Shown here: positions 24,465 through 24,753 of the stretch, in pieces
Layout of the letters: every line of letters starts with the position of its first letter
Position numbering within the stretch: the stretch's first letter is position 1
NCBI GenBank assembly: GCA_045635225.1
Contig: JAZRBV010000060.1
Location: 91,534 to 155,533, forward strand
Source of the DNA: Eubacteriales bacterium
GTDB lineage: Bacteria; Bacillota; Clostridia; Oscillospirales; CAG-272
Length of the DNA: 64,000 bases
Reading direction: 5' to 3'
The notes under the pieces: model-generated
What the model was told of the DNA's origin: nothing
Databases searched by the model: none
The model's input: only the letters and a program-made list of their open reading frames with translations
Made by a program: the position numbers and the translations under genes

Positions 24465-24509
24465 CTCATAGCTGTATCTCAGGTTTTCTAGTCCTGCCGG
24501 CACTATGAG
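24465..24509 (-). ncRNA. Closed hairpin module displaying an ACUAGAAAA loop
   Basis: 7-bp closing stem CTCATAG/CTATGAG. Inner stem CAGG/CCTG (24480-24496) has a loop containing the same 10-mer TTTCTAGTCC as the anticodon-like loop of tRNA-like element 1. Confidence 0.5.
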
Positions 24510-24515
24510 TTTTAA

Positions 24516-24588
24516 CGCATCGAGCAGGAATCGAACCTGCGACACCGGGATTTCTAGTCCCCTACTCTACCTACTGAGCTATCGATAC
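24516..24588 (-). tRNA. tRNA-like element 1 (73 nt): canonical acceptor, D and T arms, non-canonical anticodon arm (formal anticodon AGA)
   Basis: GUAUCGA/UCGAUGC acceptor, GCUC-AGUAGGUA-GAGU, GCAGG-UUCGAUU-CCUGC. Anticodon arm is GGGGA-CUAGAAA-UCCCG with a 27-43 G-G clash. Short variable loop and no encoded CCA. Confidence 0.6.
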
Positions 24589-24593
24589 AAATA

Positions 24594-24677
24594 ACAAGGC
24601 AAGTCATCACATCGCCATGTGATTTCGTTTTATTATATGAGACGCTACTCGGAGGCTTAACTTGATGCACTTGCCTT
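24594..24677 (-). ncRNA. Array unit 2
   Basis: + strand ACAAGGCAAGT...TTGATGC-ACTTGCCTT (9-bp P1). Inner hairpin AUCACAU-GGCG-AUGUGAU. Confidence 0.5.
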
Positions 24678-24684
24678 TTAAAAG

Positions 24685-24753
24685 TGGAGGGCGACAGGAT
24701 TTGAACCTGCCTGGAGGATTGGATAACCTTGCTCTTCCATAGAGCCACCCTCC
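24685..24753 (-). tRNA. tRNA-like element 2 (69 nt): perfect acceptor stem and T loop, degenerate D and anticodon arms
   Basis: GGAGGGU/GCCCUCC + A, T arm GGCAGG-UUCAAAU-CCUGUC (6 bp), D loop of only 5 nt. Anticodon arm AAGGU-UAUCCAA-UCCUC has 3 Watson-Crick pairs and A at position 33. Confidence 0.5.

What the first reader, a model, noticed from the sequence alone, without database searches (positions are those of the whole stretch)
24465..24753. Two tRNA-shaped elements with non-decoding anticodon arms, and a duplicated CUAGAAA loop, inside the array
Element 1 (24516-24588) has textbook acceptor, D and T arms. Its anticodon arm is GGGGA-CUAGAAA-UCCCG, with a G-G clash at 27-43 and formal anticodon AGA. 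A34 is almost restricted to tRNA-Arg(ACG) in bacteria, and the short variable loop excludes a Ser identity. Element 2 (24685-24753, 69 nt) keeps a perfect acceptor stem and a UUCAAAU T loop. It has a 6-bp T stem, a 5-nt D loop, only three Watson-Crick pairs in the anticodon stem and A33. The 10-mer TTTCTAGTCC that forms the loop of element 1 recurs at 24485-24494 as the loop of an independent hairpin, which suggests the loop itself is the functional unit. YrlA-type bacterial Y RNAs are known to carry tRNA-like domains. Alternatively these could be decoys or sensors for anticodon nucleases, with RtcB as the resealing enzyme.
Basis: partly seen in the sequence, partly recalled or inferred. Interest (0 to 1): 0.75.

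Follow-up and report, generated by a model that had tools for sequence, protein, structure and literature searches.

The report
Degenerate tRNAs inside a Y-RNA array
The two tRNA-shaped elements are real but non-decoding tRNA derivatives (one descends from tRNA-Phe), and they sit at fixed positions in an array of Y-RNA-like small RNAs upstream of a divergent Ro60-like protein and the RNA ligase RtcB, an RNA family I could not find described.

Summary
Both elements exist as described, on the minus strand. Element 1 (24516-24588) is a full cloverleaf (Rfam tRNA 57.7 bits). At the same array position, relatives carry an ordinary tRNA-Phe(GAA) with encoded CCA. Others carry CCA-less copies with loops CUAAAAA, UUCAAAA, CUAAA or 8-9 nt, yet 13 of 20 stem pairs show compensatory changes. 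Element 2 (24685-24753) belongs to a second conserved family: near-invariant acceptor stem, canonical T arm, and a short variable hairpin in place of the anticodon arm.

The "array" is nine units of the form 5'-AAGRYRYN-N-ACAGCAA...RYRYCUUGU-3'. They lie upstream of a DUF2828/DUF7788 protein whose predicted fold matches Ro60, followed by RtcB, with two WYL proteins upstream. The same units flank DUF2828 genes in gut Clostridia and in phages. In Bacillus phage FADO they interleave with genuine tRNAs.

The tRNA(-like) 5' ends lie 6 nt after the preceding unit in 19 of 25 cases. My best reading is tRNA-derived slots kept as an L-shaped fold for RNase P/Z maturation of the array, not for decoding.

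The shared CUAGAAA loop is not conserved in orthologues and is not statistically exceptional. The decoy or sensor idea remains untested.

The parts
26776..28032 (-). WYL-domain protein (418 aa), likely regulator of the cassette
   Evidence: Pfam WYL and WCX. PADLOC WYL 4e-11. Conserved upstream in close loci.
25868..26779 (-). Second WYL-domain protein (303 aa), overlapping the first by 4 nt
   Evidence: PADLOC WYL 1.2e-8. No Pfam hit. Conserved partner gene in L084, L166-L173.
25819..25883 (-). Terminator-like hairpin (25883-25858) followed by a promoter-like site (25847-25819, extended -10) just before unit U1
   Evidence: Consensus scan. The sequence is conserved in L166, L171 and L173. Function is inferred.
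25725..25809 (-). Unit U1 (Y-RNA-like): AAGGCACA-A-ACAGCAA ... UGUGCCUUGU
25521..25675 (-). Unit U2
   Evidence: Closing stem AAGAUACUA/UAGUAUCUU.
25367..25451 (-). Unit U3
25218..25298 (-). Unit U4
25021..25136 (-). Unit U5
24866..24932 (-). Unit U6 (imperfect closing stem)
24757..24844 (-). Unit U7. Its CUUG lies 6 nt before the 5' end of element 2.
24685..24753 (-). Element 2: free-standing tRNA-like RNA with a near-invariant acceptor stem, canonical T arm, GG-containing D loop, and a short variable hairpin in place of the anticodon arm. No encoded CCA.
24592..24680 (-). Unit U8 (5' motif mutated to GCAUCAA). It starts 7 nt after element 2 and ends 6 nt before element 1.
   Evidence: The L173 orthologue has the canonical GCAGCAA.
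24516..24588 (-). Element 1: tRNA-Phe-derived cloverleaf with loop CUAGAAA, G73 and no CCA
24465..24510 (-). Small two-tier hairpin: 8-bp outer stem, internal loop, inner stem CAGG/CCUG, loop ACUAGAAAA. It sits between element 1 and U9.
   Evidence: Orthologues are present in L011 and L003 and absent in L083.
24358..24463 (-). Unit U9, the last unit. It holds a degenerate tRNA-like domain (24373-24445) whose acceptor side is extended by the closing stem.
   Evidence: ARAGORN at 85% thresholds calls 'Phe aaa'. Member of alignment A8. Fold z -4.56.
22854..24320 (-). DUF2828/DUF7788 protein, a divergent Ro60 (TROVE + vWA) homologue
   Evidence: Pfam. AF2 model with pLDDT 88. The top 12 Foldseek PDB hits are all Ro60, Rsr or TROVE, with E 6e-8 and TM 0.6.
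21593..22801 (-). RtcB RNA ligase
   Evidence: Pfam RtcB 5e-58. NCBIfam RtcB family.

Best explanation
Elements 1 and 2 are tRNA-derived, non-decoding RNAs that occupy fixed 'tRNA slots' in a polycistronic array of Y-RNA-like small RNAs. The array forms the roughly 1.5-kb leader of a Ro60-like (DUF2828)-RtcB operon.

Shown:
- Element 1 descends from a tRNA-Phe(GAA) gene.
- Both element families keep an L-shape-competent cloverleaf through compensatory changes, while the anticodon loop is free to change in sequence and length.
- Both sit in a fixed register between units.

Inferred:
- The array is transcribed from the promoter-like site before U1.
- RNase P cuts at the 5' end of each tRNA-like element. 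This would give the upstream unit a defined 3' tail, CUUG plus 6 nt.
- RNase Z or exonucleases trim at the discriminator, which would free the next unit a few nucleotides downstream.
- The slots are therefore kept as processing punctuation. They may also act as tRNA-shaped ligands of the Ro-like RNP. They are not kept as decoders.
- In phages the same slots hold working tRNAs. In this bacterial cassette, decoding became dispensable, so the anticodon and the encoded CCA were lost.
For: (1) Ancestry.
- Element 1 aligns at 77-87% identity to the slot in L004, L006, L083 and L084.
- Seven distinct loci there have CUGAAAA plus A73-CCA.
- Ten CCA-less copies have other loops, and none is mixed.
- Among the tRNAs available in the fetched loci, the best global match is tRNA-Phe.

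(2) Structure under selection.
- Element 1 family: 95.6% of cells paired, against 34-49% when partners are slid. 13 of 20 pairs have compensatory changes, and 0 of 500 shuffles reach this.
- Element 2 family: 86.8% paired against about 52% slid. 6 pairs have double changes, and the acceptor stem is almost invariant.

(3) Loop freedom.
- Loops are 5-9 nt long, and positions 34-35 differ in every member of the closest lineage.
- The central hairpin of element 2 has loops of 3-9 nt.

(4) Register.
- 25 of 27 free-standing elements have a CUUG within the preceding 60 nt. In 19 of those 25 the 5' end lies exactly 6 nt after it.
- A following-unit motif was found downstream of 20 of the 27, at a median of 7 nt after the discriminator. 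That is 4 nt for most canonical copies, i.e. CCA plus 1 nt.

(5) Generality.
- Bacillus phage FADO has 16-18 genuine tRNAs interleaved with four units of the same motif in front of its DUF2828 gene. The unit-tRNA junctions I checked there have gaps of 2-8 nt, and one is about 30 nt.
- Other phages and bacteria place tRNA clusters next to DUF2828.

(6) Single transcription unit.
- There is a promoter-like site before U1 and no terminator-like site inside the array.

(7) Precedent.
- M. smegmatis YrlA is cleaved by RNase P and receives CCA (PMC4201824).
- tRNA-like structures serve as RNase P processing signals for MALAT1/mascRNA (10.1101/312249).
Against: - There are no expression or end-mapping data. 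RNase P/Z cleavage is inferred only.
- Most unit-unit junctions, including six in this window, have no tRNA-like element. Punctuation therefore cannot be the only maturation route.
- Element 1 is dispensable. L002 lacks it, and L001 has fused it to the last unit.
- RNase P and RNase Z need only the acceptor/T minihelix. That does not explain why the anticodon stem of the element 1 family is still kept by compensatory changes.
- Canonical and degenerate versions alternate among very close relatives. This could reflect module swapping plus recent decay rather than selection.
- Element 1's own fold z-score is only -1.75.
Confidence: 0.5

Rival explanations
1. Decoys or sensors for tRNA-directed nucleases. 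The tRNA-like RNAs would be cut in the anticodon-type loop by a toxin or phage nuclease. The fragments would either titrate the nuclease or signal to the WYL regulators to induce the operon, and RtcB would reseal them.
For: - The cassette has RtcB, a Ro60-like protein and two WYL proteins, and lies in a defence island.
- In Salmonella, the rsr-yrlBA-rtcBA operon is induced by 5' tRNA halves ending in cyclic phosphate. YrlA was proposed as a competitive inhibitor of the anticodon nuclease (PMC7790460).
- Many unit-embedded tRNA-like domains keep 7-nt loops with U33 that copy real anticodon loops: CUGAAAA (Phe), CUCAUAA and UUCAUAC (Met), CUCAGAG (Leu).
- A36-A37-A38 is conserved in the element 1 family.
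Against: - A decoy or bait should keep the target loop. The free-standing elements are exactly the ones that have lost it. Loops differ in every close relative and range from 3 to 9 nt.
- No nuclease partner was identified.
- Element 1 is absent from L002.
Confidence: 0.17
2. Decaying tRNA gene copies with no function of their own. They would be relics of a phage-type tRNA cluster that hitch-hiked with the cassette and is being eroded.
For: - Canonical tRNA-Phe+CCA sits at the same slot in relatives.
- The anticodon, discriminator A73 and CCA were lost together.
- There is a G27-G43 mismatch in the window copy.
- The slot is deleted or fused in L002 and L001.
- The state is patchy on the protein tree.
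Against: - Degenerate-loop copies from distant lineages (L011, L013, L019, L026, L118) have different acceptor sequences that remain complementary. All 7 acceptor pairs covary.
- The tertiary-core nucleotides U8, A14, G18 G19, U54 U55 C56 and A58 are invariant or nearly so.
- The element 2 family has no canonical counterpart at all, yet it is conserved with covariation and a fixed register.
Confidence: 0.2
3. Trans-acting tRNA-shaped cofactors of the Ro-like RNP. [quoted passage not shown]
For: - D/T elbow nucleotides are conserved in both families.
- The near-invariant acceptor sequence of element 2 suggests sequence-specific recognition.
- YrlA is modified by TruB and DusA (PMC4201824; 10.1101/312249).
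Against: Nothing links elements 1 and 2 physically to the protein. They lack the closing stem and ACAGCAA motif that marks the units.
Confidence: 0.1
4. A working decoder. Element 1 would be a charged tRNA reading UCU, or a Phe tRNA variant.
For: Full cloverleaf and a 7-nt loop with U33. Unmodified A34 tRNAs do exist, for example Leu(aag) in L054.
Against: - From established identity rules: bacterial SerRS needs the long variable arm, which is absent. PheRS needs G34, A35, A36 and A73, and three of these four are changed.
- Orthologues have 5-, 6-, 8- and 9-nt loops.
- Element 2 has no anticodon loop.
Confidence: 0.03

Closest known systems
Bacterial Y RNAs (YrlA/YrlB) with Rsr (Ro60) in rsr-yrlBA-rtcBA operons (Salmonella, M. 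smegmatis, mycobacteriophages)
   Same: - Small RNAs whose 5' and 3' ends pair into a stem with a conserved 5'-strand motif.
- They are encoded next to a Ro60-fold protein and RtcB, on the same strand.
- At least one RNA per locus carries a tRNA-like domain.
- A DUF2828 'Ro-like' gene of mycobacteriophage Calm is followed by a sub-threshold YrlA match (39.8 bits) that carries the same stem + GCAGCAA motif.
   Different: - The protein is DUF2828/DUF7788, not Pfam TROVE. It has no sequence match to solved Ro60 structures.
- There are up to nine units per locus.
- Most tRNA-like domains here are not circularly permuted. They keep an anticodon-type arm, and the closing stem extends the acceptor side.
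- The array also contains free-standing cloverleaves (elements 1 and 2).
- The regulators are WYL proteins, not RtcR.
- There is no Rfam YrlA or Y_RNA hit in the window.
tRNA-like processing signals (mascRNA/MALAT1, MEN-beta) and tRNA punctuation of polycistronic transcripts
   Same: A tRNA-shaped element with a reduced anticodon arm lies directly next to another non-coding RNA, so that RNase P/Z cleavage would define that RNA's ends. Element 2 even gives a weak mascRNA-menRNA match (15.9 bits, E 6.4), which is not significant.
   Different: Bacterial setting, two different element families, and no cleavage data. Membership of the mascRNA family is not claimed.
Phage tRNA clusters adjacent to DUF2828 genes (Bacillus phage FADO, FelixO1-like phages, Listeria P100-like phages)
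   Same: The same unit motif and the same tight interleaving of units and tRNA genes, in front of or behind the DUF2828 gene.
   Different: In the phages the tRNAs are a diverse, canonical decoding set (Rfam 45-73 bits). In the window only two degenerate slots remain.
tRNA pseudogenes / tRNA-derived elements
   Same: Loss of the anticodon, discriminator and encoded CCA relative to a canonical parent.
   Different: Cloverleaf pairs are maintained by compensatory substitutions across lineages, and the position is fixed.

Membership tests
tRNA (Rfam RF00005): element 1 | Cloverleaf scoring above the curated threshold; called by a tRNA finder | tested here: met
   57.7 bits against a gathering score of 29. 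ARAGORN calls it at default settings.
tRNA: element 1 as a decoder | Anticodon and identity elements consistent with one bacterial isoacceptor; conserved anticodon in orthologues | tested here: not met
   AGA anticodon with a short variable loop and G73. Orthologous loops vary in sequence and length. The identity rules come from established knowledge, not from a test here.
tRNA: element 1 | Aminoacylation and CCA end in vivo | not testable with these tools
   No CCA is encoded. The 3' flank is UUAAAA.
tRNA (Rfam RF00005 / RF01852): element 2 | Score above the gathering threshold | tested here: not met
   The best match is tRNA-Sec at 24.7 bits against a gathering score of 47. ARAGORN calls it only at 85% thresholds.
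YrlA (Rfam RF02553): elements 1 and 2 and the window units | Match to the YrlA covariance model, i.e. a circularly permuted tRNA-like domain with a closed acceptor loop | tested here: not met
   No YrlA or Y_RNA match at E<=10 in 22000-32000 or in the array alone. Elements 1 and 2 have open acceptor ends.
Y RNA (functional class): the nine units | Stem formed by the 5' and 3' ends with a conserved motif, encoded beside a Ro60 homologue | tested here: met
   Closing stem with covariation. Conserved ACAGCAA. Found upstream of DUF2828 in nearly all loci and in phages.
Y RNA (functional class): the nine units | Bound by the Ro60 homologue | not testable with these tools
   Needs RIP or EMSA.
Ro60/TROVE: the DUF2828 protein | HEAT-repeat ring plus vWA fold of Ro60 | tested here: met
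   The AF2 model (pLDDT 88.3, pTM 0.89) matches 2i91_A, 1yvr, 9nf8, 2nvo and 9l5y over the full length, with E 6e-8 to 2e-5 and TM up to 0.62.
Ro60/TROVE: the DUF2828 protein | Sequence membership of Pfam TROVE, or similarity to solved Ro60 structures | tested here: not met
   Pfam gives only DUF2828 and DUF7788. phmmer and a profile search against PDB sequences found nothing at E<=1 and E<=10 respectively.

The most novel reading that the evidence does not exclude
The DUF2828-type Ro60 proteins, which are abundant in gut Clostridia and in hundreds of phages, would work with a previously unrecognised class of Y RNAs. Their variable modules would be a repertoire of mimics of specific tRNAs (Phe, Met, Leu and others). 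The free-standing degenerate tRNAs, elements 1 and 2, would be part of that repertoire. Together they would form a surveillance and repair system. Nuclease attack on tRNA anticodon loops would be sensed or absorbed by the mimics, reported to the WYL regulators, and repaired by RtcB.
Probability: 0.15. Interest if true: 0.85.

Novelty: new variant of a known kind. Interest (0 to 1): 0.62.

Why it matters
Ro60 and Y RNAs are conserved from bacteria to humans, yet the role of the tRNA-like part of bacterial Y RNAs is unknown. This locus type shows a second, sequence-divergent Ro60 branch (DUF2828).
- The capped homologue search returned 8000 proteins at E<=1e-5.
- 706 phage records carry a homologue.

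This branch has its own conserved RNA partner motif. It also has a recurring physical link to tRNA genes, which runs from full phage tRNA clusters down to degenerate tRNA slots.

The system could be used to test three questions:
- whether tRNA-processing enzymes mature Y RNAs
- why tRNA-Phe in particular is copied
- whether Ro-like RNPs act on tRNAs during RNA damage.

For annotation, it warns that 'tRNA-Ser(aga)' and similar calls upstream of DUF2828 genes are not decoders.

Tried and rejected
- Megablast of the cassette against the phage and plasmid collections gave no match.
- Sequence searches of the DUF2828 protein, alone and as a 23-sequence profile, against PDB chains found nothing. Only the fold comparison worked.
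- Rfam at permissive thresholds, on 10 kb and on the array alone, gave no Y_RNA or YrlA match.
- NCBIfam had no model for the DUF2828 or WYL proteins, and PADLOC had no model for the DUF2828 protein or RtcB.
- Literature searches for DUF2828, DUF7788 and PF11443, and for Ro60/Y RNA combined with tRNA-like, array and Firmicutes terms, found no description of these RNAs. Burroughs & Aravind 2016 could not be retrieved.
- I looked for a tRNA parent of element 2 among tRNAs in the fetched loci. There was no convincing match, and the resemblance to the Firmicute tRNA-Tyr acceptor recalled from memory was not borne out.
- I tested whether the duplicated 10-mer is significant on its own. It is not.
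- I searched all loci for the small hairpin with strict and loosened patterns. Only L003 and L011 have it, which is too few to test co-variation of its loop with the neighbouring tRNA-like loop.
- I considered an amber-suppressor reading of the CUA in the loop and rejected it, because CUA occupies positions 32-34, not 34-36.
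Full report
**1. The observation**

All genes around the finding are on the minus strand, and so are the elements.

Element 1 (24516-24588) is called by ARAGORN as a tRNA with anticodon aga. Rfam tRNA scores it at 57.7 bits against a gathering score of 29. The sequence shows:
- a 7-bp acceptor stem with one U-G pair
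- a normal D arm with G18 G19
- anticodon stem GGGGA/UCCCG with a G27-G43 mismatch, and loop CUAGAAA
- a 5-nt variable loop
- a canonical T arm
- discriminator G73, with no encoded CCA.

Element 2 (24685-24753) folds with a 7-bp acceptor, a 5-bp D stem with a 5-nt loop, and a 6-bp T stem with loop UUCAAAU. Only AGG/CCU pairs where an anticodon stem should be. It fails the standard detectors: Rfam's best match is tRNA-Sec at 24.7 bits (gathering score 47), and ARAGORN calls it only at 85% thresholds.

The 10-mer GGACUAGAAA is indeed present twice. The second copy caps a hairpin at 24465-24510 (z -3.0). However, 15% of dinucleotide shuffles of the array contain some 10-mer repeated within 100 nt.

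**2. What "the array" is**

The 1.55-kb non-coding stretch at 24321-25867 holds nine units of 67-155 nt. Each is closed by a 7-9-bp stem whose sequence differs between units but stays complementary. Examples are AAGGCACA/UGUGCCUU, AAGAUACUA/UAGUAUCUU and AAGGCGCAU/AUGCGCCUU. The 5' arm is followed by ACAGCAA, and the 3' arm ends in CUUGU.

The flanking genes are as follows.
- Downstream lies a DUF2828/DUF7788 protein and then RtcB.
- Upstream lie two WYL-domain proteins.
- The DUF2828 protein has no sequence match in the PDB.
- Its AlphaFold model (pLDDT 88) matches Ro60, Rsr and TROVE structures over the full length as its 12 best hits. The best has E 6e-8 and TM about 0.6. vWA domains come next.
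- Phage annotators already call homologues "Ro-like RNA binding protein".

Across all fetched loci and the window (about 175 arrays) I found 497 distinct 5' motifs upstream of the DUF2828 gene. Of these, 407 have a complementary 3' partner. An 8th pair that was not used for detection is paired in 269 of 407, against 158 expected.

A promoter-like site lies directly before U1, and no terminator-like site lies within the array. RtcB follows DUF2828 in 45 of 63 loci. The units are thus Y-RNA-like partners of a divergent Ro60. No Rfam family matches them.

**3. tRNA-like domains are a theme of the family**

Many units in other loci contain a D arm, an anticodon-type arm and a T arm. Their short acceptor-side helix is extended, across an ACAGCAA-containing internal loop, by the closing stem. 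In an alignment of 25 such units, RNAalifold predicts 22 pairs, and 15 of them have compensatory changes. Their 7-nt loops often copy real anticodon loops: CUGAAAA, CUCAUAA, UUCAUAC and CUCAGAG. The window's last unit, U9, is a degenerate member.

This topology differs from YrlA. YrlA is a circularly permuted tRNA mimic with a closed acceptor loop and no anticodon loop (10.1101/312249).

**4. Element 1 is a tRNA-Phe derivative**

The arrays are mosaics of shared modules. At the slot before the last unit, L004, L005, L006, L084, L086, L166 and L171 carry a canonical tRNA-Phe(GAA) with A73-CCA. The other loci that have this slot carry CCA-less copies:

| Locus | Loop |
|---|---|
| window | CUAGAAA |
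| L083 (94% identical protein) | UUCAAAA |
| L010, L087, L019, L026 | CUAAAAA |
| L173 | CUAAA |
| L118 | 6 nt |
| L011 | 8 nt |
| L013 | 9 nt |

No copy combines CCA with a non-GAA loop, or the reverse.

The cloverleaf is maintained across the 16 distinct sequences:
- 95.6% of cells are paired, against 34-49% when partners are slid.
- 13 of 20 pairs have compensatory changes, including all seven acceptor pairs.
- 0 of 500 shuffles reach these values.
- The tertiary-core nucleotides are invariant.

On a DUF2828 tree the two states interleave among close relatives. L001 carries a chimera of the tRNA-Phe 5' half and the 3' half of the last unit. Both observations indicate recombination between modules.

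**5. Element 2 is a second family**

Orthologues are found in L001, L002, L003, L009, L084, L166, L171 and L173. They share the acceptor GGAGGG/CCCUCC with A73 in eight of nine, and a T arm that is canonical in six of nine. The central hairpin has 3-6 bp and a loop of 3-9 nt (CAU, ACUA, UAUAA and others). In this family 86.8% of cells are paired, against about 52% when slid, and six pairs have double changes. No canonical tRNA counterpart was found.

**6. The small hairpin**

Orthologues are present in L011 and L003 at the same place, just before the last unit. They keep the outer stem and the internal-loop nucleotides. The inner stem covaries (CAGG/CCUG, CAC/GUG, CGC/GCG), but the loops differ (ACUAGAAAA, CUUGUAAA, CUUAAAAA). 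L083 lacks the hairpin. The loop shared with element 1 is therefore specific to this window.

CUAGAAA also turns up in the last unit of L118. This suggests it is simply a near neighbour of CUGAAAA. Its function is unknown.

**7. Register and phage parallels**

Of 27 free-standing elements, 25 have a CUUG within the preceding 60 nt. In 19 of those 25 the 5' end lies exactly 6 nt after that CUUG. A following-unit motif was found downstream of 20 of the 27. It starts a median of 7 nt after the discriminator, and 4 nt for most canonical copies, i.e. CCA plus 1 nt.

The phage loci show the same association:
- In Bacillus phage FADO, the 3 kb before the DUF2828 gene holds 16-18 genuine tRNAs. They are interleaved with four units of the same motif, mostly at gaps of 2-8 nt. 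One of those units has a YrlA-like permuted order.
- Listeria phage VAfA18 has three units before its DUF2828 gene and RtcB after it.
- Mycobacteriophage Calm has three units after its Ro-like gene. One matches Rfam YrlA at 39.8 bits.
- FelixO1-like phages and several bacterial loci place tRNA clusters next to DUF2828.

**8. Interpretation**

Shown:
- the tRNA-Phe ancestry of element 1
- structural selection without decoding constraint in both families
- the fixed register
- a Ro60-fold neighbour
- conservation of the unit motif across phyla and phages.

Inferred: the slots act as RNase P/Z processing punctuation for a polycistronic Y-RNA array, and possibly also as tRNA-shaped ligands (confidence about 0.5).

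Rivals, with my confidence in each:
- eroding relics with no function (0.2)
- nuclease decoys or sensors coupled to RtcB and the WYL proteins (0.17)
- trans-acting cofactors of the RNP (0.1)
- a true decoder (0.03).

**9. Novelty**

I found no description of RNA partners of DUF2828 proteins in the searchable literature. The 2014 YrlA survey was restricted to TROVE-annotated proteins (PMC4201824). I rate this as a new variant of the Ro60/Y RNA/RtcB theme. Within it, elements 1 and 2 are the degenerate end of a tRNA-interleaved array architecture.

Noticed in passing
window 24358-25809 (nine units); loci L001-L179: There is a widespread RNA motif that Rfam does not match: 5'-AAGRYRYN-N-ACAGCAA...RYRYCUUGU-3'. 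It sits next to DUF2828 genes in Clostridia, Synergistaceae, Negativicutes and in phages of Bacillus, Listeria and Mycobacterium. I counted 497 distinct copies across the fetched loci.
   Followed up: partly
L176 1469-2020 (Listeria phage vB_Liva_VAfA18): A ROOL RNA match (89.8 bits, just under the gathering score of 99.1, E 3e-17) lies between phage tRNA genes and the DUF2828/RtcB/NADAR region.
   Followed up: no
L177 4440-4720 (Mycobacterium phage Calm): Three units with a stem plus [AG]CAGCAA motif follow the 'Ro-like RNA binding protein' gene. The middle one is a sub-threshold YrlA match (39.8 bits against a gathering score of 69). This links the motif to YrlA-type Y RNAs.
   Followed up: partly
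L001 4874-4951: A chimera: the 5' half of the canonical tRNA-Phe is fused to the 3' half and closing strand of the last unit. This is evidence of recombination between the free-standing tRNA and the unit-embedded tRNA-Phe mimic.
   Followed up: partly
L171 2151-2224; L173 2210-2281: A third free-standing tRNA-like type (acceptor GCGGCGG/GCGGCUG, loops CUAACGG and CUGAAG) sits between the element 2 and element 1 slots. It is absent from the window.
   Followed up: no
window 25137-25217, 25299-25366, 25452-25520, 25676-25724, 24933-25020: The 49-88-nt spacers between several units are conserved in close relatives (L166, L173) and contain hairpins. They may be further small RNAs or processing sites.
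   Followed up: no
window 18260-20882: A LexA-like S24 peptidase/HTH protein and a Y-family polymerase (IMS) lie just downstream of RtcB. The polymerase also follows RtcB in L083. This recalls the DNA-damage induction of the Salmonella rsr-rtcBA operon.
   Followed up: no
window 30290-50262: The surroundings are a defence island. There are two large helicases, one fused to a PLD nuclease and DUF3427. There is also a type I R-M system with two HsdM, two HsdS and an integrase (a shufflon-like arrangement), in which one HsdM is fused to an ADP-ribosylglycohydrolase domain. In addition there is a DUF6361 protein.
   Followed up: partly
window 56939-58612: A Rep_OBD plus helicase replication-initiator-like protein suggests the window may lie on or include an integrated mobile element.
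   Followed up: no
L054 7435-7511: A normal tRNA cluster contains tRNA-Leu(aag). A34 outside tRNA-Arg(ACG) therefore does occur in these bacteria.
   Followed up: no
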